From: a phage
Direction: 5' to 3' (one strand)
DNA length: 54,480 nt
Assembly (NCBI GenBank): GCA_018865545.1
Contig: GCA_018865545.1_3633.2
Below the pieces are notes generated by a model. That model was not told the DNA's origin, did not search any database, and was given only the letters and a program-made list of their open reading frames with translations. Both the position numbers and the translations under genes were made by a program. Positions 16,416 to 41,991 of the stretch are shown here, piece by piece. Each line of letters opens with the position of its first letter. Positions within the stretch are counted from its first letter, which is position 1.

Positions 16416-16771
16416 CACCCAAACCACATTACTATCCCTAACACTACGAAAAGAAACCCAAGTAGGCAAAAGGAGGTTATTCTCTCTTTCTTTTTAAACT
16501 CTTTTGTTGGGTTGTAATTTTCCTGTTTTAATACAAGGTTCTCATCATACCAAGTAATCCGTTGCCCGTTCAGGTTATGATACCGCTTATGAAGCTGCAC
16601 AGCTTTTTTGGCAATATCTCCTGTTGGGTATGGGTTTGAGTACATGGCCTCGCCATCATCTGAAACTACTGTTTGGTTTATCGCATCACCATCGTAGTAC
16701 ACTTTCCAGCAGGATTTAGTTATAACCCCATCAACCATGTCTTCTATGTGATATATATTGTACTTGCTCAT
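16415..16771 (-). CDS. hypothetical protein with C-terminal hydrophobic segment
   Basis: ORF track. Confidence 0.5.
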   Translation of the reverse strand: MSKYNIYHIEDMVDGVITKSCWKVYYDGDAINQTVVSDDGEAMYSNPYPTGDIAKKAVQLHKRYHNLNGQRITWYDENLVLKQENYNPTKEFKKKERITSFCLLGFLFVVLGIVMWFG

Positions 16772-17139
16772 GCGTACTCTTTTATCTCCTGGATTGCATC
16801 TTTCGATAGCCAGCTATCAACAGGAATACTACTGAAATCTTTGTGCCACCGATGGGGCTTGTGCCCCTCCCTATGGTCAAGGGGGCATATATCCTCTGGC
16901 ACTTTAAAATGATTGCCTTCGATATCGTAATAGTTTCCGTCTATAAGGGTATAGACGTGTCCTTGTATCCTGCTATAGCATATCTGTGCTTGTGGGAAAA
17001 TGTGTTTAAGTACTAATGCCACTTGATAGCACTTCCCATTCTGACCAATCCACACACTATCCACTTGTGGTGGGAAAATATCCCTGATTTTTCCTATCAG
17101 GGATGTTATATGGTTTTCTACACAACCTGCCATACTCAT
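16768..17139 (-). CDS. hypothetical protein
   Basis: ORF track; 4-nt overlap with neighbour. Confidence 0.5.
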   Translation of the reverse strand: MSMAGCVENHITSLIGKIRDIFPPQVDSVWIGQNGKCYQVALVLKHIFPQAQICYSRIQGHVYTLIDGNYYDIEGNHFKVPEDICPLDHREGHKPHRWHKDFSSIPVDSWLSKDAIQEIKEYA

Positions 17140-17414
17140 CGCCTTGCTTTTAGTAGTGCCTTGAAAAATTTTCTCGCTGCTTTTTCTGCCTGCCCTTTAC
17201 GAGAAAACTCGTTCTCTCTGAATCTCCATTTTCCCGTATCTTCATCCTTCCAGACTTCTGCGTTAAGGAAATCAAGAATATTATCTGTAATCAATTCAAT
17301 ATCCTCATCTGTAAACCAATATTTTATGGCTCCGCTATAGACCTCTCGGAGGTACTCTCTACGGTCATCACCAGAAATCATATTTTTCCCTGATGGCTGC
17401 TCCCAACCCAACAC
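17136..17414 (-). CDS. hypothetical protein
   Basis: ORF track. Confidence 0.5.
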   Translation of the reverse strand: MLGWEQPSGKNMISGDDRREYLREVYSGAIKYWFTDEDIELITDNILDFLNAEVWKDEDTGKWRFRENEFSRKGQAEKAARKFFKALLKARR

Positions 17415-17553
17415 CTATAACTAGTAGTACTGCCACGAATACCAACCAAAAGAGATAAGCATTGCCAAAAATGGTTGTTGGAAACACAACAATAAACAAA
17501 ACAATCAGTACGACAGGAACCCCGATACACAAATTCTTCAGCACTTCCTTCAT
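17368..17553 (-). CDS. small membrane protein
   Basis: ORF track; two hydrophobic stretches. Confidence 0.35.
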   Translation of the reverse strand: MKEVLKNLCIGVPVVLIVLFIVVFPTTIFGNAYLFWLVFVAVLLVIGVGLGAAIREKYDFW

Positions 17554-30065: not shown

Positions 30066-30539
30066 TTAAATCTCCTCTTTCCACAAACCATCTTTTTTAA
30101 CCCACATTCTTTGGTTATCAGAACCCCTGAACCTTTTGGTTGTGGGCTTAGACATATCATACTTACCATCTATAACAATGTCAACAAGATTCTTAATTCT
30201 TTCAGGTATTTCTTCAAATAAATACCCTGTCCACAGCCAAATGTTTTTATCATCTCCGTAAACTGACCGTACCTTTAAAATAATCTTTATAACACCATCA
30301 ATATTTTGCGGATCAAGTGGTTCCCCACCTAAAATTGAGAGTCCTTTTATTTGCTTACGTGCCAAATCCTTTATAATTCTATCTAAGTGCTCATCTGTAA
30401 ACACTTCGCCATAGCTGTATGACCAGGCTCTTTGGTTAAAGCAGCCGCGACAACCATGACCACAACCGCTAACCCAGAGGGAGCATCGCACTCCCTCCCC
30501 GTTGATCATATCTGTTGGTTCATAACCGCAGAAATTCAT
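30066..30539 (-). CDS. nrdG: anaerobic ribonucleotide reductase activating protein
   Basis: Radical-SAM cluster motif CGHGCRGCFN; adjacent to nrdD exons. Confidence 0.8.
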   Translation of the reverse strand: MNFCGYEPTDMINGEGVRCSLWVSGCGHGCRGCFNQRAWSYSYGEVFTDEHLDRIIKDLARKQIKGLSILGGEPLDPQNIDGVIKIILKVRSVYGDDKNIWLWTGYLFEEIPERIKNLVDIVIDGKYDMSKPTTKRFRGSDNQRMWVKKDGLWKEEI

Positions 30540-30940
30540 GTATGTTTCACTCTCTCCACAACTTCTTGCATCTTACCCTTGTTATAAGGACGGCTGTTTG
30601 GAGCAGACAAATATCCAGACACACGTCTAATCACACTTATTGTTTCTTCATCATGATTGCCACAAGAAGGACACTCGAACCCCTTAGCTGTGGCCTTAAA
30701 TTCACCAGAGAAACCACACTCGTGACACCTATCTACAGGTTGATTTATACCAAAATAAGGGATGTATTCATATCCATAATCCACTAAGGCTTCCAATGCT
30801 TGCATGTTGTTTTTTAGATTAGGAACTTCCACATAACCTATGTTGCCACCATTACTTATCTCAGCAAACCCACATTCATAATCCCATTTGAAGAATGGAT
30901 CAGACGTTTTCCACACTGGTTGATGGAACGAGTTTGTCAA
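30536..30940 (-). CDS. nrdD: anaerobic ribonucleoside-triphosphate reductase, exon 3 (glycyl-radical C-terminus)
   Basis: Zn-ribbon CHECGFSGEF..CPSCGN and glycyl radical motif RRVSGYL; 5' boundary approximate (frame open upstream to about 30955). Confidence 0.75.
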   Translation of the reverse strand: MTNSFHQPVWKTSDPFFKWDYECGFAEISNGGNIGYVEVPNLKNNMQALEALVDYGYEYIPYFGINQPVDRCHECGFSGEFKATAKGFECPSCGNHDEETISVIRRVSGYLSAPNSRPYNKGKMQEVVERVKHT

Positions 30941-31300
30941 ATAATCTCTTTCAATTAACCCAGGATATGCTTCTTTAAGTTTTGTGGCAAATTTATAACA
31001 CAGAGATTCTGCCGATGTACCGCTGCTTTCGCAGTATTTTTACGGACTAGACTATATCACGATCTTGTGACCACTCACAAGACCCTCCACATTTCGCCAT
31101 TCAAGGCTACTCTACTCGCTTCTTCACATCAGGTGAGGCTGATGCTATGCTTTCGATAGTCGTTAGAGACAATTTCTTGCCTACGGGGTTAGCTCTGCCC
31201 CAACAGGGTTTAGCCTTTCTTAACAGCTTATTGTTTATTCAGCTATGCCCGTTTAGTGGAGTTATTCGACAACCATCACTGGTTGAAGGCCCAATTGTGT
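30941..31300 (-). ncRNA. group I intron (ORF-less) in nrdD, boundaries approximate
   Basis: Separates exon 2 from exon 3; on the coding strand contains AACGACTATCGAAAG (P7 5'-like) and AAGATCGTGATATAGTCTAGTCC (P7 3'/P9.0-like). Confidence 0.55.
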
Positions 31301-32391
31301 CTAGGCGTGCCATATAAGCTAAATGCTAAACCACTTCGCTCTTTAAAATCAGCACAAATATCCTTCATGTATTTCAAGATATTCATTGCCATCTCTTTAC
31401 GAACTGGTTCGCCATACAAAATTTCAACTGCTTCATAAAGACCCACATAGCCAATACTGATTGATGCGTAGCCATTAAAGAAGAGTTTACTAATCTTTTC
31501 ATCAGGTCCAAGTCGTGCAATAGCCCCTTCCATAAACATTGTAGGGTTCTGGGAGGCTTTTACATCCATCAATCTACCGACTCTAACCATATGCGCTTTA
31601 TATGCCATTTCCATGTGCTTTTCAAGCAATTCGGTAAACAGAGTTTTCTTAGATTTTGCTTCTGCTGCAATCATAGGCAAGTTTAGAGAGACAACACCAA
31701 GATTGAATCTACCGTCATATTTCTCACCATGTTCTGTTGCATAATAAGATAAGAAACTTCTACAGCCCATGCTTGTAACACGCCCGTCTGAAGAACCTGT
31801 TACCTTTTTATTCAACGGGACAGATATGAAATCTGGATAAATCCTTTCAACACAACACTCCATAGCTAATTGCTTTAAGTCGTAGTTTGGATCGCCAGGC
31901 TTCATGTTTACCCCATCTTCCAAGAAGAAGATAACTTTTGGAAAAACAGGTGTGACTTTATCTTTGCCAAGTCCGTTCTTGTGAACAAGAAGATAATTCT
32001 TTGTAATCATTCTCCCAAAATAGGAAGTATCAAGCCCAAGGCTCAAGGTAATAAATGGGCATTGACCGTTAGCACTCATCAAGGTATTTACCTGATAAAG
32101 CAATGTCTGCATAGCATCGTAAACATCTTTTTCCGTCATCTGCATAGCTACACCTTCTGGGTCTGGCAGCCATTGCTCCTGACAAAATTTTAGATTTTTA
32201 TCGTAACTTGCCTTGGCATATTGTTTTAATCCTTCGTCAATATGAGTGTATGACTGACCACCATACTGTGCCGAAGAAACTGCTTGGGATATCTGGCTAA
32301 GAATCGTACAGGCGACACCTATTGATTTTGGTTTTTCTATTTTTGCGTTGCCAATTTTAAAACCGTTCTCCAACATACCCCTGTAATCCAC
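31276..32391 (-). CDS. nrdD: anaerobic ribonucleoside-triphosphate reductase, exon 2
   Basis: Central NrdD-like body ending near FSLYGTP; the last 8 codons and stop (RHNWAFNQ*) are probably intron read-through. Confidence 0.8.
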   Translation of the reverse strand: MDYRGMLENGFKIGNAKIEKPKSIGVACTILSQISQAVSSAQYGGQSYTHIDEGLKQYAKASYDKNLKFCQEQWLPDPEGVAMQMTEKDVYDAMQTLLYQVNTLMSANGQCPFITLSLGLDTSYFGRMITKNYLLVHKNGLGKDKVTPVFPKVIFFLEDGVNMKPGDPNYDLKQLAMECCVERIYPDFISVPLNKKVTGSSDGRVTSMGCRSFLSYYATEHGEKYDGRFNLGVVSLNLPMIAAEAKSKKTLFTELLEKHMEMAYKAHMVRVGRLMDVKASQNPTMFMEGAIARLGPDEKISKLFFNGYASISIGYVGLYEAVEILYGEPVRKEMAMNILKYMKDICADFKERSGLAFSLYGTPRHNWAFNQ

Positions 32392-32757
32392 AAGACTACA
32401 GTTGAAGAGCGGACTTATTAGGTAATCTAAATCCTTGATTTTCCTACATTTTTGCAGGCAATGACTATATCATAATCTCGAAAGAGATTCTCTGCTTTTC
32501 AACTGGTAGCGTCTCCAGCTTACTCCCGAAGGATAGTCGATACACATAACGAAGTCTCACTCAGAATTATTATCTTCACGGAATGATACTTCGTCTTAGC
32601 ACGGTATTACCTTGCCCCTTAGCCGAAGGGTTTAGGCTCCCTTACTCATAATGCAGTCACCTGCTTCTGAACCGTTAGCACAGTTTTTACTGCACACCGC
32701 TTTGCAATCAGCGTTAACAGAGTTATTCAATACTGATCACTCAGTAAGGCCACGATG
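32392..32757 (-). ncRNA. group I intron (ORF-less) in nrdD, boundaries approximate
   Basis: Separates ATP-cone exon from exon 2; coding strand contains GTATCGACTATCC and GATTATGATATAGTC, the same GATATAGTC block as the second intron. Confidence 0.55.
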
Positions 32758-33261
32758 TTATTCATGGATATGACCATACCCATTTGTATGCCATTCAGCT
32801 AATTCTTTTGGTAGAATTTGAGTTAGTGAAACGTGCTTGCTAAGGATACCAGCGAGAAGATCACGATGGCTACTAACCACCCCACTTGGTTTATTAGCGT
32901 TTTCTTTAGTAAATTCATCGGCAGTTTGTTCTAAGAATCCCGTAATATCTGCAAACAGCTTCCCTTTACATTCCCTAACGTTATCACGCGTTTTACGATA
33001 TTCAATATAAACCCGTGCTGCATTTTTGAGGTCAAGATCCATTAGTGAATCTTCCACAATGCGGTGAATATCACAAACAGCCACTTTCTCTTGTGGTGGT
33101 TCTGATTTTTCCAGAGTTCCCCAGACTTGCTCGCCAACTGCACATGCCAGAGGATATGATTTCTCACCATAACCAGCAGCAATCAGAGCAGCTTCTGCCG
33201 CTCTAATAACTTTCACACCATCATAATCTTCTTCACGCCCATCACGTTTAACAACTTTCAT
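32758..33261 (-). CDS. nrdD: anaerobic ribonucleoside-triphosphate reductase, exon 1 (ATP-cone)
   Basis: MKVVKRDGREEDYDGVKVIRA ATP-cone start; ends GYGHIHE just before the intron. Confidence 0.75.
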   Translation of the reverse strand: MKVVKRDGREEDYDGVKVIRAAEAALIAAGYGEKSYPLACAVGEQVWGTLEKSEPPQEKVAVCDIHRIVEDSLMDLDLKNAARVYIEYRKTRDNVRECKGKLFADITGFLEQTADEFTKENANKPSGVVSSHRDLLAGILSKHVSLTQILPKELAEWHTNGYGHIHE

Positions 33262-37782: not shown

Positions 37783-39669
37783 TCAACCTGCCACAACATT
37801 GTTGGGAACTAGTTGGCGGTATTGTACCCACCCACGTAGATTTCCTGACCACATATTTCCTTTTCTATCCATATGTGTCACGCCGTCACTTGCCTGTCCA
37901 TCCCACCACAATGAAGCCTCATTCTCCAACATAGGTGTTGCAACATGCTCAAAAGGAGATGCGTGTACCTTATCACCACTTGTTAGCTTTTTATAGATAT
38001 CAAGGGCTTTATCCTTAGTGTTGTTAAGCACGCGATACGAGACTTGTGCACAACAAGACACAGAAATAGCAATTGCCTCATCAACACGTAGCATCACAGG
38101 CTCGTTGTTCTCATCTAAAACACAATACCCATGAAATTCTCCAACATCCTCACCAACCTCAACTGTGTAGAGGTGCTCTACATATGGGGTGTGCCACTGA
38201 CCAGGTTCTAATAGCTCAGGTACAGACTCATCCACAGCTTGTTTCATGAGAGATGCTAGTTTATGGATCGTCGGGTCTGCATCTCCATCTGCACGAAGAT
38301 GGAAAAAATTATTCCAATCCGTAGCAGTAACAACAGTTTTCATCCTCTGGAACGGTTCCAGTAAGCGATTTGCCACCTGCTTGTGGTATCCCGCTTGTGA
38401 GTATGCTTCGGCAAAACGTGATGCACTTAAAGCCGCCAATTTCCACCAATCCTCTGGGGAATATCCAGCATCTATTTCAGCATTGTGATTACCATCATCT
38501 TGCATACCAGGTTTATTCTTACCAAATTGAACAGGCATGGCAGGATTTTTTCGTACTTGCTCAATCATCTTAGAGATTGGAATTGCTCTGCTGCTCATAG
38601 CATTCCTGCTAAACAGTCTATGCGTCATAAGTTCACAGTTCCCACTGATAAATACGACACCTTCCCTTCGAACAACCACGTAGGAGGTGTCTACACTTAC
38701 ACAATACACCTTCCCTACATAGTCCTCATACTCGAAGATATCTTTATCCTGCCTTAGACTAATGTAGTTCGTAACTTTAAATGAGCATTTATACAGAGAG
38801 CCATACTTACGAATATTCACAGAGTCACCATTCAGGTGAGCTAACACCTGAATTTGGTTAATCAGTGTTTTGGATGTGGTGTTATACTCCATGTTGTCAA
38901 TATTGCCGTCTGAGAGTAGCAATGCTCTCTTAAATAAGCGGTACTGCTCCTTATTTAACCCTCTGATATATTTTGGTAATTTTTTCTCCCCTTCTCCAGT
39001 GTAACATGCTTCTGTTAATGGGTTTTTATTAAAACTGATAACTATATCGTCCCCATATATAGAGGTGCTATATTCGTATCCACACTCTTCAAGGATACGT
39101 GTAACTTCCTGTACCTTCCGAGACTTTTTAAAATGGAAGTTTGCCTTATTCCCCTTTTCTGGGGTATGTCCATCAGCAGCAAACCAAACACAAAATTCAA
39201 TCTCCGCATCAGAAAGGTCACACTTTGCATTCATTACCCCAGACTGCTCGATACGTAATGTTCCATAGTCTCCTACAAGTTCCTCAGCAAGAATCGTCTT
39301 ACTTACAAATTTACCCCCAGTAGTCCTTTTTTTCGTAAGGACTCGATGCTTGTCTGTAACAAGCATGGGGAACTTCTTCTTGTTCAGAGATACCATCCGA
39401 TGACGACCTTCGTTCTCTATGTGTGCGGATGGGGTTACAAAGCTAATAGCTCCTGTTGTATCATCATACTGTGCTACCTTAGCATTGAGTGCAAATACTT
39501 CCCTGAAAGATCTGAACTCTGGCAATTCCGAGTTAATCTGACTGAGTATTTCTGTCTTCTCGTCAAAGCAGTGAATAATGCGGGGGTATTCCAACTCAAA
39601 AGTGGTAATTCTGATACCTTGTGGGGAAATACTGTCAGCTACGATATGTACAGAGATCTGATTATTCAT
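37783..39669 (-). CDS. thyX: ThyX-like flavin-dependent thymidylate synthase interrupted by a LAGLIDADG intein
   Basis: ThyX signature HRLFSRNAMS (RHR-x7-S with T for the first R), NFFHLRADGDAD and HASPFEH; insertion CFDEKTEIL...VVFISGN with LAGLIDADG-like CVWFAADGHT and LLLSDGNI. Confidence 0.55.
   Translation of the reverse strand: MNNQISVHIVADSISPQGIRITTFELEYPRIIHCFDEKTEILSQINSELPEFRSFREVFALNAKVAQYDDTTGAISFVTPSAHIENEGRHRMVSLNKKKFPMLVTDKHRVLTKKRTTGGKFVSKTILAEELVGDYGTLRIEQSGVMNAKCDLSDAEIEFCVWFAADGHTPEKGNKANFHFKKSRKVQEVTRILEECGYEYSTSIYGDDIVISFNKNPLTEACYTGEGEKKLPKYIRGLNKEQYRLFKRALLLSDGNIDNMEYNTTSKTLINQIQVLAHLNGDSVNIRKYGSLYKCSFKVTNYISLRQDKDIFEYEDYVGKVYCVSVDTSYVVVRREGVVFISGNCELMTHRLFSRNAMSSRAIPISKMIEQVRKNPAMPVQFGKNKPGMQDDGNHNAEIDAGYSPEDWWKLAALSASRFAEAYSQAGYHKQVANRLLEPFQRMKTVVTATDWNNFFHLRADGDADPTIHKLASLMKQAVDESVPELLEPGQWHTPYVEHLYTVEVGEDVGEFHGYCVLDENNEPVMLRVDEAIAISVSCCAQVSYRVLNNTKDKALDIYKKLTSGDKVHASPFEHVATPMLENEASLWWDGQASDGVTHMDRKGNMWSGNLRGWVQYRQLVPNNVVAG
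38638..39570 (-). mobile_element. intein with LAGLIDADG homing-endonuclease domain (about 311 aa, boundaries approximate)
   Basis: Starts with Cys in block-A-like CFDEKTEIL, ends ...SGN immediately before Cys; inserted 5 residues before the ThyX catalytic motif. Confidence 0.5.
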
Positions 39670-39989
39670 TATAAAGCCCCTTCCAGTTTCTTTAGAAAGT
39701 CATCTTTAAAACTATCTACCAGTTTCATATATTCTTCTGCAATCATATCCTCAATAATCCCACGGCGTTCAGAATATTTTTTATCGAAGGAGATCATTTC
39801 TTCGATTTCTTCTGCGGTGAAGATTTTTAAGTGCATATCGTTAATAATTTTAGTAACAAATTCCTCTGTGATACCCAGATCTTCAATTGTGATCCCTGTT
39901 CCTTCAAGGCCAAGGATAGGGATGATTTTCCCTGCACGAGCAATCATTTCATTCTTAAGGTATTCAAAAGATTCTTTTTTCAACATCAT
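39669..39989 (-). CDS. hypothetical protein
   Basis: ORF track. Confidence 0.45.
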   Translation of the reverse strand: MMLKKESFEYLKNEMIARAGKIIPILGLEGTGITIEDLGITEEFVTKIINDMHLKIFTAEEIEEMISFDKKYSERRGIIEDMIAEEYMKLVDSFKDDFLKKLEGAL

Positions 39990-40183
39990 CTTCCTCTCTT
40001 TTTTATCTTAAACTTTGTTTGCGGATCCATACCCGCTTTAAAAACAAGATATCTTGTAAGAATATCATTACACATATCACTGGTAGCTTTAAAAGAGATT
40101 AAGAAGTCCTCATCCTCTGTGAAAACTTCCACCCAATCTCCATATTTTACTACAAAATCACCTTTTGTGCATCGTCTAATCAT
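39986..40183 (-). CDS. hypothetical protein
   Basis: ORF track. Confidence 0.4.
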   Translation of the reverse strand: MIRRCTKGDFVVKYGDWVEVFTEDEDFLISFKATSDMCNDILTRYLVFKAGMDPQTKFKIKKRGR

Positions 40184-40785
40184 GCTATGTCTAAAACAAA
40201 ATCACGTATTGTATACCAATCATCTGTTTCAAGGTCTAGGGATGTTTTTAATTCTTCAGACTGATCATAAGGTGTTTTAAATTTAATTTTAATAACCTCT
40301 GGACCAAACTGATTAAGGAACTCATTCCTATCATCAATAATAACATCAACATCTACCCCAGCTTTATGCTTTGTTGCATAGAAAGCATGACCGGAACCAG
40401 GCTCTAAGCTGAAAAACTCTTCTGTTTCTCTTTTTAGAAAGCGCACTTTAGATGAAAAATGACCTTTCATACAATAAGAAACAAAATGATTAAAATGACC
40501 AGCTTTAGCCCATGCAGCTACTGCTTCCACTGCACCGGGGAGAGGCTTCAACTTATCGTAAAGATAAGGATCCTCCCAAAACTCATAAGGACTAAGCTGA
40601 TGCACCTTCGCAGGTGGGAAATACTTAGAAACATTGTAATACAGCATACCTTGTGGATTTGGTGGTGGTAATGATAAATCCATTTTAACACCATAAACCT
40701 TTTCCAACCACTCAATCCAAGGTGTCCCAGAATCAACAAATGTCAAATCTACATCAATTCCGATCTTAAGCGTATTCACCTTCAA
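40180..40785 (-). CDS. HAD-like hydrolase (putative 5'-deoxyribonucleotidase)
   Basis: IGIDVDLTFVD fits HAD motif I (DxDxT); C-terminal DVDVIIDDR resembles motif IV. Confidence 0.4.
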   Translation of the reverse strand: MKVNTLKIGIDVDLTFVDSGTPWIEWLEKVYGVKMDLSLPPPNPQGMLYYNVSKYFPPAKVHQLSPYEFWEDPYLYDKLKPLPGAVEAVAAWAKAGHFNHFVSYCMKGHFSSKVRFLKRETEEFFSLEPGSGHAFYATKHKAGVDVDVIIDDRNEFLNQFGPEVIKIKFKTPYDQSEELKTSLDLETDDWYTIRDFVLDIA

Positions 40786-41392
40786 AGACTCCCCCTGTTG
40801 CCAAAACGTTTTTTAAGAAATCCAATTTTTCAACAGCATTGTCATAAACCTTCCTATTGTAATACTTATTTGTTGGACGGTAATTATTAAGTTTCCGCTC
40901 ACATTCAGAAATTATGTAACGTAACCATGCATGATGGGCTTCTAGTTCAGAATCGAAAGTCCCTATATGGATAAAGCTAGGAAAATTACGACAATGTACT
41001 GCTTTCCATCTTTCTCTATTTTTAATTTTACATGTCCCAAGAAGACCACCAGATTTCGTTACCGTTTTCTCTGGGAATGGAAAACAATAGAGGATATCCT
41101 TTGGTGTGAATATGCATGTTTCTGGACTGTACAGTTGACTTTTCCTAATTAAGTAGATATCTAAGCTGTGATCTGGTTTTTTATTCTTCAGATACCATTC
41201 TTTGTAATTACTAAACACCAACCACTCATCACATACATTAAAATCGGTGTCGCCCGTCATATAGCAAAACAGAATCATTGATCGCCACGTTTTATGAGCC
41301 ATTTTAACTTTCCATACCGTTTCGCCAGGGTCATGATTATCTGTGGCGACACCACAAAACAAACCATCAACCTCAAAAGAAAAATTTTTCAT
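40766..41392 (-). CDS. AP2-domain homing endonuclease-like protein
   Basis: WKAVHCRNFPSFIHIGTFDSELEAHHAWLRYI resembles the AP2 DNA-binding domain of phage HNH/AP2 endonucleases. Confidence 0.4.
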   Translation of the reverse strand: MKNFSFEVDGLFCGVATDNHDPGETVWKVKMAHKTWRSMILFCYMTGDTDFNVCDEWLVFSNYKEWYLKNKKPDHSLDIYLIRKSQLYSPETCIFTPKDILYCFPFPEKTVTKSGGLLGTCKIKNRERWKAVHCRNFPSFIHIGTFDSELEAHHAWLRYIISECERKLNNYRPTNKYYNRKVYDNAVEKLDFLKNVLATGGVFEGEYA

Positions 41393-41991
41393 TATTCAAC
41401 CCCAGCAGCAGTAAAGACGAACCACTTATGGATTGACTTGGCACAGTCTTCCATTTTACCATCAATATTCTCGAAATCTCTTTCGTACCCTCGGATCCCG
41501 TCTAAATAGAGCCAATTACGACTATCATTGCCCCAGTCACAACCTTCTCTGTGAATACGTGCCAAGAAGAATTTACCACCAGTTTCATAAGCATAGTTGG
41601 AAAGCTCAAGGATCTCTTCCTTAAAACCACCATCTGAAAAAACAACCAACCATGCCTCTTGATGGTTTTTCTTTAAATTCTCTACAGCAGCTTTGCCAAA
41701 AGCATTCTGTCCGAAAATTGGTTTAATCACATTCTCTGAACAATGGATCATCCATTCTCGTGGGGAGACATGTTCTCCATCAATTTGCAGGTAAGGACAA
41801 GGTTTTTCTTTGTATCTACGGTCATAAAGACTGTTCCACAAATCTTTTGAGACTCCAGCAGATCTGATAGCAACTTCAAAAAGTAGTTTCTTCACTTCTT
41901 CATGAAACACACCAGAGATGTTCTCACTCAAATAAGAACAAATAGCGTCTTTTCCAGCACCTGGTGGTGCATTTAAAACAAGAATATGCAT
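41392..41991 (-). CDS. deoxynucleoside monophosphate kinase (P-loop)
   Basis: MHILVLNAPPGAGKDAICSYL P-loop resembling phage dNMP kinases. Confidence 0.55.
   Translation of the reverse strand: MHILVLNAPPGAGKDAICSYLSENISGVFHEEVKKLLFEVAIRSAGVSKDLWNSLYDRRYKEKPCPYLQIDGEHVSPREWMIHCSENVIKPIFGQNAFGKAAVENLKKNHQEAWLVVFSDGGFKEEILELSNYAYETGGKFFLARIHREGCDWGNDSRNWLYLDGIRGYERDFENIDGKMEDCAKSIHKWFVFTAAGVE

What the first reader, a model, noticed from the sequence alone, without database searches (positions are those of the whole stretch)
37783..39669. ThyX-like gene with a LAGLIDADG intein and unusual motif order
A 311-aa insertion starts with Cys and ends with Asn before Cys, carries two LAGLIDADG-like motifs, and sits five residues before the ThyX RHR-x7-S motif. 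The first Arg of that motif is Thr here, and the PFEH-type motif lies near the C-terminus rather than before the RHR motif, suggesting a permuted or extended ThyX.
Basis: partly seen in the sequence, partly recalled or inferred. Interest (0 to 1): 0.55.

Follow-up and report, generated by a model that had tools for sequence, protein, structure and literature searches.

The report
Intein inside a permuted phage ThyX
A phage gene for a flavin-dependent thymidylate synthase (ThyX) is interrupted by a self-splicing, mobile protein element (an intein), which is an ordinary new example, but the enzyme belongs to a very large phage family in which the ThyX fold is circularly permuted, and I found no description of that.

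Summary
Window 37783..39669 (-) is one 628-aa ORF in a Vequintavirinae/Avunavirus-like E. coli phage. Residues 34-344 (window 38638..39570) are a class-1 LAGLIDADG intein. It is an exact 933-nt in-frame insertion compared with an intein-less allele in a closely related phage (the surrounding DNA is 94-98% identical). It has Cys1, TxxH, a C-terminal Asn and a +1 Cys. Its AF2 model (pLDDT 95) matches the PI-PfuI, PI-SceI and VMA inteins.

- the matches to T. maritima ThyX are in non-collinear order;
- an in-silico "de-permuted" protein gains 14-16 bits against Pfam Thy1;
- one collinear match runs across the junction of a doubled ThyX sequence.

THR in place of RHR is the family norm (115 of 131). 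The family carries inteins at five or more sites.

The intein is a new member of a known kind. I found no description of the permuted ThyX. Splicing, homing and thymidylate synthase activity are inferred, not shown.

The parts
37783..39669 (-). Whole precursor ORF: 628 aa plus stop (N-extein, intein, C-extein)
   Evidence: It is 98.3% nt identical to 'putative thymidylate synthase' CDSs of Escherichia phages 18-1-2, 19-1-2, 24-2-1 and vB_EcoM_TH18.
39571..39669 (-). N-extein, aa 1-33 (MNNQ...YPRIIH): an added N-terminal strand plus the strand equivalent to T. maritima ThyX residues 61-69
38638..39570 (-). Class-1 intein with a LAGLIDADG homing-endonuclease domain, 311 aa (Cys34..Asn344 of the precursor)
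   Evidence: Exact 933-nt indel against L005. AF2 pLDDT 95.3. Foldseek top 14 hits are endonuclease-containing inteins, TMq 0.57-0.71. 36-51% identical inteins sit at the same site in other family members.
39346..39357 (-). Intein block B, TDKH (T72-x-x-H75 in intein numbering)
   Evidence: H75 is invariant in 16 related inteins; translation checked.
39166..39189 (-). LAGLIDADG motif 1, VWFAADGH (catalytic Asp133)
38902..38925 (-). LAGLIDADG motif 2, ALLLSDGN (Asp221-Gly222 invariant)
   Evidence: Pfam LAGLIDADG_3 scores 22.1 bits, just under the 22.5 cut-off.
38638..38715 (-). Intein blocks F and G: GKVYCVSVDTSYVVVRREGVVFISGN. Cys stands at the usual block-F Asp position, the penultimate residue is Gly, and the terminal residue is Asn.
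   Evidence: A penultimate Gly in a phage class-1 intein that splices has a precedent in PMC5050341.
37783..38637 (-). C-extein, aa 345-628 plus stop. It begins with the +1 Cys, which is Ser in empty alleles.
38587..38625 (-). ThyX motif in its family form, THR-x7-S-S-R (T349 H350 R351 ... S359 S360 R361). It aligns with T. maritima R78 H79 R80 ... S88 G89 R90.
   Evidence: Across the family: THR 115, THK 8, RHR 2 of 131.
37945..38184 (-). Relocated module (precursor aa 496-575): strands, two helices and HASPFEH. It is equivalent to the N-terminal ~60 residues of canonical ThyX (S30, H53, T55, E58, H59).
37945..37965 (-). HASPFEH motif (H569..H575), the counterpart of T. maritima H53-ETPFE-H59
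   Evidence: It is also an intein insertion site in other family members and in canonical Corynephage P1201 ThyX.
37786..37944 (-). 53-aa C-terminal tail with no canonical ThyX counterpart. It carries family-conserved N610, Q616 and R618 (SGNxxGWxQxRQ).

Best explanation
The gene encodes a 628-aa precursor. A 311-aa class-1 intein sits between His33 and Cys345. After translation the intein is expected to excise itself by the standard four-step pathway: Cys34 N-S acyl shift, trans-thioesterification to Cys345, cyclisation of Asn344, then an S-N shift. This ligates a 317-aa enzyme. The intein's LAGLIDADG domain is expected to cut intein-less alleles (...CGCATTATTCAT|AGTGAACTTATGACG...) in co-infecting related phages and copy itself in, together with the Ser-to-Cys change at +1. 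The mature protein belongs to a very large, mostly phage-borne branch of the ThyX (Thy1) superfamily whose fold is circularly permuted. The new termini fall between the HxxPFEH flavin-binding motif and the strand that leads to the RHR motif. An N-terminal strand and a 53-aa C-terminal tail have been added. It most likely makes dTMP from dUMP for phage DNA synthesis, next to the phage's ribonucleotide reductases. Shown here: the insertion/empty-site polymorphism, the conserved splicing and endonuclease residues, both predicted folds, and the non-collinear homology. Inferred: splicing, endonuclease activity, homing and thymidylate synthase activity.
For: INTEIN
- The insertion is exact and in frame compared with empty alleles in KpS8, PVP-SE1 and P0001. 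It is 933 nt against L005, and only the -1 and +1 codons differ within +/-45 nt.
- C1, H75, D221-G222, K196 and N311 are invariant in 16 related inteins at three sites.
- The AF2 model has pLDDT 95.3 and pTM 0.91. Its top PDB hits are TliVMA, PI-PfuI, PhoVMA, PI-SceI and PI-TkoII (E 8e-13 to 3e-7).
- Full-length relatives include the GenBank-annotated intein of Corynephage P1201 ThyX (25% identity) and the mycobacteriophage phosphoesterase (RDF) intein family. The Bethlehem gp51 member of that family has a penultimate Gly and was shown to splice.
- Compared with phage 18-1-2 the intein has 5 mismatches in 933 nt, and the exteins 25 in 954 (Fisher p = 3e-4). This fits recent spread by homing.

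EXTEIN
- Pfam Thy1 scores 39.9 bits (cut-off 24.8), but only on profile positions 59-191. phrog_85 'thymidylate synthase' gives 4.7e-108.

PERMUTATION
- A family profile hits T. maritima ThyX at E = 1e-6. Profile 216-262 aligns with Tm 20-64, 26-55 with 61-90, and 132-176 with 155-199.
- De-permuted constructs gain 13.6-16.3 bits in 5 of 5 members, and the match extends to profile position 12/13 (48 in one member) through 190/191. Core-only and shuffled-module controls show no gain.
- On a doubled Tm ThyX a single 28.2-bit domain joins Tm 159-220 to Tm 1-64.
- Counterparts of Tm S30, H53, E58, H59, H79, R80, N85, S88, R90, N169 and R174 are invariant or at least 90% conserved, except the R80 counterpart, which is Arg or Lys.

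CONTEXT: NT5C-like nucleotidase, nrdA, nrdB, glutaredoxin, nrdD, nrdG.
Against: - No experiment supports splicing, cleavage or enzyme activity.
- The penultimate intein residue is Gly, not His, and block F has Cys where most inteins have Asp. Splicing chemistry or rate may therefore be atypical.
- Pfam LAGLIDADG_3 falls just below its cut-off (22.1 against 22.5 bits), and no Pfam Hint/intein model matches.
- The extein is far below the TIGR02170 thyX equivalog cut-off (43.6 against 87.9 bits).
- The first Arg of RHR is Thr. In solved ThyX enzymes that Arg hydrogen-bonds both the flavin ring and dUMP (PMC6514825).
- The Tyr 'lid' after the Ser-x-Arg is an invariant Ala.
- The permutation rests on sequence-profile tests and the order of secondary-structure elements. 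I could not superpose coordinates.
Confidence: 0.8

Rival explanations
1. The extein has the ThyX fold but is not a plain dTMP synthase. It may be a flavin-dependent pyrimidine-nucleotide modifying enzyme with a different substrate, product or reductant.
For: - It is below the TIGR02170 equivalog cut-off.
- The family-wide R78-to-T change removes a residue that contacts both flavin and dUMP in solved enzymes.
- The Tyr lid is replaced by an invariant Ala.
- A conserved 53-aa tail (N610, Q616, R618) and an invariant WHxP (H493, P495) have no canonical counterpart.
Against: - Counterparts of the nucleotide-binding Ser88, Arg90 and Arg174 and the flavin-side His53, Glu58 and His79 are conserved.
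- The gene sits in a dNTP-supply cluster.
- PHROG and GenBank annotations call the family thymidylate synthase, but that is by homology only.
Confidence: 0.15
2. The insert is a decayed intein that no longer splices, or splices poorly, so the gene is inactive or yields a fused 628-aa protein.
For: Penultimate Gly instead of His, and Cys instead of the block-F Asp. There is no experimental evidence.
Against: - The ORF is intact, and four isolated, presumably viable phages carry an intein 99.4% identical at protein level.
- Splicing residues are invariant across homologues that are only 19-52% identical.
- A phage class-1 intein with penultimate Gly splices efficiently, and changing that Gly to His slowed it (PMC5050341).
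- The insertion lies in the helix just before the active-site motif, so an unspliced protein would very probably be inactive, and then nothing would select for an intact extein.
Confidence: 0.05
3. The intein still splices, but its endonuclease is inactive. The element would then be a vertically inherited passenger, not an active homing element.
For: No cleavage data. Pfam LAGLIDADG_3 is marginal. Two related inteins (P0196, P0214) have Asn in place of the first catalytic Asp, so decay does occur in this intein family.
Against: - Both catalytic Asp residues (D133, D221) and the conserved Lys196 are present.
- The intein is present or absent between closely related genomes (the surrounding DNA is 94-98% identical), with a clean junction.
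- The intein is significantly less diverged than its exteins between isolates.
Confidence: 0.25
4. The late HxSPFEH motif is not homologous to the early motif of canonical ThyX. It would be convergence or an unrelated extension, so the protein is merely N-terminally truncated and C-terminally extended, not permuted.
For: - Each non-collinear HMM piece is weak on its own (9.5-14.7 bits).
- Only 2 of 10 isolated C-terminal segments hit Pfam Thy1 (E 0.0012 and 0.057).
- There is no coordinate superposition.
Against: - The match covers about 45 residues, including the upstream helix (SxxxAxVS[YF]) as well as HxxPFEH, not just a heptapeptide.
- The de-permuted constructs gain score in 5 of 5 members and the shuffled controls do not.
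- One collinear domain spans the junction of the doubled sequence.
- The order of secondary-structure elements (strands, helix, helix, short helix) mirrors the canonical N-terminus.
- Related inteins occupy the same H|xxP(F/L)EH position in canonical P1201 ThyX and in permuted family members.
Confidence: 0.05

Closest known systems
Corynebacterium phage P1201 gp22 thymidylate synthase (Thy1/ThyX) intein (GenBank note: 'contains hypothetical intein')
   Same: It is a LAGLIDADG intein in a phage ThyX. It aligns over its full length with this intein (25% identity, E 5e-12) and has the same C...SGN ending with penultimate Gly.
   Different: The P1201 extein has the canonical motif order (HH|SVLEH before RHRH). 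Its intein sits inside the HxxPFEH motif. That corresponds to site 'e' of the permuted family, not to the pre-THR site used here.
Mycobacteriophage Bethlehem gp51 (RDF / metallophosphoesterase) intein, Kelley et al. 2016 (PMC5050341)
   Same: It is a phage class-1 LAGLIDADG intein with a penultimate Gly, and splicing was shown experimentally. Phosphoesterase inteins of related mycobacteriophages align with 81% of this intein.
   Different: Only about 23% identity, a different host protein and a different host phage group. Activity of the present intein has not been tested.
Ter ThyX intein (Trichodesmium erythraeum) and the ThyX inteins of mycobacteriophage cluster C1
   Same: They are inteins in flavin-dependent thymidylate synthases. 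Ter ThyX splices efficiently in E. coli (PMC3620165). The C1 ThyX inteins are listed in PMC5050341.
   Different: I did not compare their sequences or insertion sites. Whether their exteins are canonical or permuted was not checked.
PI-PfuI, PI-SceI and the TliVMA/PhoVMA inteins (solved endonuclease-containing inteins)
   Same: The two-domain architecture is the same: a HINT splicing domain and a LAGLIDADG endonuclease. Foldseek gives E 8e-13 to 3e-7 and TMq 0.57-0.71.
   Different: Sequence identity is 10-15%. This intein is shorter (311 aa against 360-540), and it has Gly for the penultimate His and Cys for the block-F Asp.
Canonical ThyX / FDTS (T. maritima TM0449, PDB 1KQ4/1O26; M. tuberculosis 2AF6; H. 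pylori 3AH5)
   Different: - The order of segments is circularly permuted.
- The first Arg of RHR is Thr, and the Tyr lid is Ala.
- There is an extra N-terminal strand and a 53-aa C-terminal tail.
- It is about 317 aa against about 220, and it is below the TIGR02170 cut-off.

Membership tests
Intein (class 1) | In-frame insertion within a conserved host protein that is absent, with a seamless junction, from orthologous alleles | tested here: met
   It is a 933-nt, 311-codon indel against L005/P0001. KpS8 and PVP-SE1 read RIIH-SELMTHR without a gap.
Intein (class 1) | N-terminal nucleophile (Cys/Ser at position 1) and block B TxxH | tested here: met
   Cys34 (intein C1) and T72-D-K-H75. C1 and H75 are invariant in 16 relatives.
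Intein (class 1) | C-terminal Asn followed by a +1 Cys/Ser/Thr | tested here: met
   ...ISGN344|C345. The +1 residue is Cys in all site-a inteins, and Ser in the empty alleles compared (KpS8, PVP-SE1, P0001, P0002, P0006).
Intein (class 1) | Penultimate His in block G (frequent, but not obligatory or defining) | tested here: not met
   The penultimate residue is Gly, as in all 16 relatives. Phage class-1 inteins with Gly at this position splice (PMC5050341).
Intein (class 1) | HINT fold of the splicing domain | tested here: met
   AF2 pLDDT 95.3. Foldseek aligns the whole model with TliVMA, PI-PfuI, PhoVMA and PI-SceI. No Pfam Hint model hit.
Intein (class 1) | Protein splicing that yields ligated exteins | not testable with these tools
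   This needs expression followed by Western blot or MS.
Class 3 intein | No position-1 nucleophile, and a Trp(B:12)-Cys(F:4)-Thr(G:5) triplet | tested here: not met
   Cys1 is present, B:12 is Val and G:5 is Ser. Only the block-F Cys (VYC) is shared.
LAGLIDADG homing endonuclease (double-motif, intein-borne) | Two LAGLIDADG motifs, each ending in an acidic residue, within an alpha-beta-beta-alpha-beta-beta-alpha pseudo-dimer fold | tested here: met
   VWFAAD133G and ALLLSD221G. Foldseek also matches I-DmoI and I-Tsp061I over about 170 residues. Pfam LAGLIDADG_3 scores 22.1 bits against a 22.5 cut-off.
LAGLIDADG homing endonuclease (double-motif, intein-borne) | Site-specific cleavage of the intein-less allele | not testable with these tools
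   The candidate target is known from L005: CGCATTATTCAT|AGTGAACTTATGACG.
ThyX / Thy1 (flavin-dependent thymidylate synthase) | Match to Pfam PF02511 above the gathering score | tested here: met
   39.9 bits against 24.8 for the spliced extein, but only on profile positions 59-191 of 191.
ThyX / Thy1 (flavin-dependent thymidylate synthase) | NCBIfam TIGR02170 thyX equivalog cut-off | tested here: not met
   43.6 bits against a cut-off of 87.9.
ThyX / Thy1 (flavin-dependent thymidylate synthase) | ThyX motif RHR-x7-S | tested here: inconclusive
   The motif is THR-x7-S. The His, the second Arg, the Ser and the following Arg are conserved, but the first Arg is Thr here and in 115 of 131 family members.
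ThyX / Thy1 (flavin-dependent thymidylate synthase) | ThyX fold | tested here: met
ThyX / Thy1 (flavin-dependent thymidylate synthase) | Canonical order of segments (HxxPFEH module before the RHR motif) | tested here: not met
   The order is reversed, which is consistent with a circular permutation.
ThyX / Thy1 (flavin-dependent thymidylate synthase) | FAD-dependent conversion of dUMP to dTMP; homotetramer | not testable with these tools
   No assay and no multimer model were possible. I found no report of biochemical tests on the permuted family in the papers searched.

The most novel reading that the evidence does not exclude
The permuted 'ThyX' of Vequintavirinae and thousands of other phage genomes may be a mechanistically distinct flavoenzyme. 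The loss of the flavin- and dUMP-contacting first Arg of RHR (to Thr) and of the Tyr lid (to Ala) would be compensated by residues from the new C-terminal tail (N610, Q616, R618) or from the invariant WHxP. That could change substrate, product or reductant. In addition, the intein family it hosts (Cys at block-F position 4, penultimate Gly) might give conditional, for example redox-tuned, splicing that times enzyme activity during infection.
Probability: 0.15. Interest if true: 0.7.

Novelty: new variant of a known kind. Interest (0 to 1): 0.45.

Why it matters
1. Annotation. Public records of this phage group call the 628/629-aa ORF 'putative thymidylate synthase' and do not mark the intein. 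The mature enzyme is 317 aa.
2. Enzyme family. The rearranged ThyX is not a curiosity of one gene. It is the standard form in a family with about 5,100 representatives at 50% identity clustering, and in more than 1,000 sequenced phage genomes. Yet Pfam models only two thirds of it, NCBIfam's thyX model rejects it, and I found no paper that describes the permutation. Because ThyX is an antibiotic target and a model for flavin-mediated methylation, a natural permuted variant with R-to-T and Y-to-A changes in the active site is a useful comparison.
3. Functional marking. Inteins mark functionally critical positions. Five insertion sites in this family all fall in conserved motifs. The same H|xxPFEH site is used in both the canonical and the permuted topology, which independently ties the two motifs together.
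4. Tools. The intein and its endonuclease are candidates for protein engineering (a class-1 intein with penultimate Gly) and for a new cleavage specificity.

Tried and rejected
- Single-sequence phmmer of the extein and of the intein against PDB sequences gave only chance hits. A family profile was needed.
- Pfam scans of isolated C-terminal segments were weak (2 of 10), so I designed the de-permutation, shuffle and duplication tests.
- The same duplication test on the Corynephage P1201 extein showed the same non-collinear order, but only weakly, and no domain fused across the junction.
- The word-indexed protein search found only 3 relatives of the intein. tblastn against phage genomes was more informative.
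- I considered a group I intron or a free-standing endonuclease gene in place of an intein. I rejected this because the insert is in frame, has no stop codon, carries the splicing residues, and has no Rfam match.
- I considered a class 3 intein because of the block-F Cys. I rejected it because Cys1 is present and the Trp and Thr of the WCT triplet are absent.
- The window holds no second copy of the intein.
- GC content of the intein (0.406) against the exteins (0.394 and 0.442) is uninformative.
- Literature searches for a permuted or extended phage ThyX found nothing relevant. This is absence from an open-access library, not proof that it has never been described.
Full report
WHAT IS THERE

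Window 37783..39669 (minus strand) is a single 628-aa ORF with an ATG start. The window is 98.3% identical over this gene to four GenBank phages: Escherichia phages 18-1-2, 19-1-2, 24-2-1 and vB_EcoM_TH18. They are classified in Vequintavirinae, genus Avunavirus, and the ORF is annotated there only as 'putative thymidylate synthase'. The neighbours are a dNTP-supply cluster: an NT5C-like nucleotidase, nrdA, nrdB, a glutaredoxin, nrdD and nrdG.

THE INTEIN

I aligned the ORF with the orthologues of Klebsiella phage KpS8 and Salmonella phage PVP-SE1. Residues 34-344 are absent from them, and the flanks join without a gap as YPRIIH-SELMTHR. Acinetobacter phage vB_AbaM_B9 carries a homologous insert at the same place (45% identity overall).

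A metagenomic protein, P0001 (318 aa), is 98% identical to the spliced extein and lacks the insert. Its contig, L005, is collinear with the window at 94-98% nucleotide identity. The only difference in the gene is a 933-nt indel at window 38638..39570. Within +/-45 nt of the junction only two codons differ: CAT to CAC (silent, position -1) and AGT to TGT (Ser to Cys at +1). This is the classic occupied-site versus empty-site pair of a homing element, and the intein brings its own +1 nucleophile.

The insert has the residues expected of a class-1 intein:
- Cys1;
- block B, T72-D-K-H75;
- two LAGLIDADG motifs, VWFAAD133G and ALLLSD221G;
- block F, VYC;
- block G, ISGN, followed by Cys.

In an alignment of 16 related inteins, C1, H75, G134, K196, D221, G222, C290, G310 and N311 are invariant, although identity is only 19-52%.

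Pfam evidence is marginal. LAGLIDADG_3 scores 22.1 bits against a cut-off of 22.5, and no Hint model matches. I therefore predicted the structure: pLDDT 95.3, pTM 0.91. Its 14 best PDB matches are all endonuclease-containing inteins: TliVMA, PI-PfuI, PhoVMA, PI-SceI and PI-TkoII, with E from 8e-13 to 3e-7 and TMq 0.57-0.71. Free-standing LAGLIDADG enzymes such as I-DmoI follow.

The penultimate residue is Gly, not the usual His. Kelley et al. showed that the mycobacteriophage Bethlehem gp51 (RDF) intein also has a penultimate Gly and splices efficiently, and that restoring His slows it (PMC5050341). Phosphoesterase/RDF inteins of that family align with 81% of the present intein in tblastn.

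The invariant Cys at the block-F position that is normally Asp recalls class 3 inteins. However, Cys1 is present and the Trp and Thr of the WCT triplet are not, so I file this as class 1 with an unexplained block-F Cys.

Between this window and phage 18-1-2 the intein has 5 mismatches in 933 nt, against 25 in 954 nt for the exteins (Fisher p = 3e-4). The intein is therefore younger than the divergence of its host alleles, as expected for recent homing.

Among 50,697 phage records only five carry this intein at this site.

THE EXTEIN

The spliced 317-aa protein matches:
- Pfam Thy1 above threshold (39.9 bits against 24.8), but only on profile positions 59-191;
- phrog_85 'thymidylate synthase' at 4.7e-108;
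- TIGR02170 thyX at 43.6 bits, well below its 87.9 cut-off.

THE MOTIF ORDER

An exhaustive phmmer search with P0001 against 1.84 billion representatives finds 5,142 proteins at E <= 1e-3 and 2,326 at E <= 1e-30. Most are 300-340 aa and matched end to end. In 150 of them the motif is THR in 115, THK in 8 and RHR in only 2. In the 108-sequence alignment drawn from them, the late HxSPFEH is conserved: H, S, E and H at 90% or more.

Three tests support a circular permutation.
1. A 108-sequence profile hits T. maritima ThyX at E = 1e-6 through three pieces in non-collinear order. Profile 216-262 aligns with Tm 20-64 (helix SAVRAARVSF ... HETPFEH), 26-55 with Tm 61-90 (the RHR...S-G-R block), and 132-176 with Tm 155-199. 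I verified the Tm sequence against 1KQ4.
2. I placed the C-terminal module (P0001 residues 186-265) in front of residues 21-185. The Pfam Thy1 score rose in 5 of 5 diverse members: 41.4 to 55.0, 51.3 to 66.3, 31.5 to 45.1, 50.7 to 66.6, and 43.6 to 59.9 bits. It gave one stretch reaching profile position 12/13 (48 in one case) through 190/191. Core-only constructs and constructs with a shuffled module score 33-51 bits and start at profile positions 58-60.
3. Against a tandemly doubled T. maritima sequence the profile gives one 28.2-bit domain that runs from Tm 159 through the C-terminus into Tm 1-64 of the second copy.

The secondary-structure order in the model agrees: strands, helix 219-235, helix 242-253, short helix 261-265.

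The new termini therefore lie between HxxPFEH and the strand that leads to RHR. An N-terminal strand (residues 7-15) and a 53-aa tail are additions. I could not superpose coordinates, so the three-dimensional equivalence remains an inference.

ACTIVE SITE

By these alignments, the counterparts of Tm S30, H53, E58, H59, H79, R80, N85, S88, R90, N169 and R174 are invariant or at least 90% conserved, except the R80 counterpart, which is Arg or Lys.

Two things differ:
- R78 is Thr. In solved enzymes that Arg hydrogen-bonds the flavin ring and helps hold dUMP (PMC6514825).
- The residue after the Ser-x-Arg is an invariant Ala where canonical enzymes have the Tyr 'lid'.

The tail carries conserved N610, Q616 and R618, and the linker an invariant WHxP, whose roles are unknown. 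I therefore rate 'thymidylate synthase' as likely but not established.

INTEINS AS MARKERS

Seventeen of the 150 representatives carry inteins, at five sites:
- (a) H|C...GN|CE(L/I/F)(M/L)THR, the site used here;
- (b) within or just after THR, HNH-type inteins;
- (c) SS|...|SRAIP, a mini-intein;
- (d) LRxH|...|C(D/E)AQPE;
- (e) PxH|...SGN|(S/C)SP(F/S)(E/G)H.

Site-e and site-d inteins belong to the same family as this one: site-e inteins are about 25% identical by blastp, and site-d inteins 19-22% in the alignment.

Corynephage P1201 gp22 has a related intein and is annotated 'contains hypothetical intein'. Its ThyX has the canonical order, and the intein sits at KHH|C...SGN|SVLEH, which is the site-e position but near the N-terminus. 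The same conserved site is used in both topologies, which is independent support for the homology of the two motifs.

HOW NOVEL

Inteins in ThyX are known: Ter ThyX (PMC3620165), mycobacteriophage C1 (PMC5050341) and P1201. By itself the intein is a new, unannotated member of a known kind.

For the permuted ThyX I found no description in the searchable literature. Neither Pfam nor NCBIfam models it fully. I rate it a new variant of a known kind, with the caveat that the library holds open-access papers only.

NOT SHOWN

Splicing, endonuclease activity, homing, flavin binding and dTMP synthesis are all inferred.

Noticed in passing
window 30536..33261 (-); L005 15967-17506: The anaerobic ribonucleotide reductase gene nrdD is split into three ORF pieces (32758..33261, 31276..32391, 30536..30940), with gaps of about 366 and 335 nt. 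The sister contig L005 has group I introns in nrdD: Rfam Intron_gpI scores 75 bits and 41.8 bits, plus a weak 18-bit hit. The window has only a weak hit (17.6 bits, 32442-32773). Two L005 introns (16676-16954, 17254-17506) are absent from the window, and window 31013-31303 is absent from L005. Small introns are therefore present or absent between phages about 97% identical.
   Followed up: partly
window 40766..41392 (-): A free-standing HNH homing endonuclease gene (208 aa; phrog_953, E 3.8e-24; no Pfam hit) lies in a ~630-nt segment (about 40782-41412). That segment is absent from both Escherichia phage 18-1-2 and contig L005. It is about 1.1 kb upstream of thyX.
   Followed up: partly
window 39572..40771: The stretch between the HNH endonuclease insertion and the intein is only 94.2% identical to L005, against about 98-99% on either side. 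It may be a recombination or co-conversion tract linked to the two mobile elements.
   Followed up: no
proteins P0128, P0130, P0137, P0139, P0157, P0160, P0162, P0166, P0190, P0191, P0196, P0204, P0214, P0230, P0235, P0247, P0266: The permuted ThyX family is an intein hot spot. It has at least five insertion sites, all in conserved motifs, and three intein types (LAGLIDADG, HNH and mini-intein). Seventeen of 150 representatives carry one.
   Followed up: partly
window 38638..38715 (intein blocks F and G): The block-F position that is normally Asp is a Cys (VYC), invariant in 16 related inteins, and it is combined with a penultimate Gly. The intein does not have the class 3 WCT signature. The meaning is unknown (a possible disulfide or redox control, or altered catalysis).
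   Followed up: partly
window 37786..37944 and 38185..38205: The 53-aa C-terminal tail (SGNxxGWxQxRQ; N610, Q616 and R618 conserved) and the invariant W-H493-x-P495 linker have no counterpart in canonical ThyX. They might compensate for the missing Arg78 and Tyr91 equivalents.
   Followed up: no
OK181858.1 19898-20749 (Escherichia phage 19-1-2, other scaffold); PQ014731.1; protein P0273: Related inteins (23-30% identity) sit in the DNA primase/helicase of the same phage group, in a DNA polymerase of Escherichia phage VB-EcoM-WM, in RNR alpha of Staphylococcus Silviavirus phages and Shigella phage SHSML-45, and in a GTP cyclohydrolase I (P0273). The window itself has no second copy.
   Followed up: no
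L003 3902-4300 (Salmonella phage PVP-SE1) and several Seunavirus records: In some intein-less relatives an HNH endonuclease gene, or a fragment of one, lies immediately downstream of thyX. The thyX locus therefore attracts different kinds of homing elements in different Vequintavirinae.
   Followed up: no
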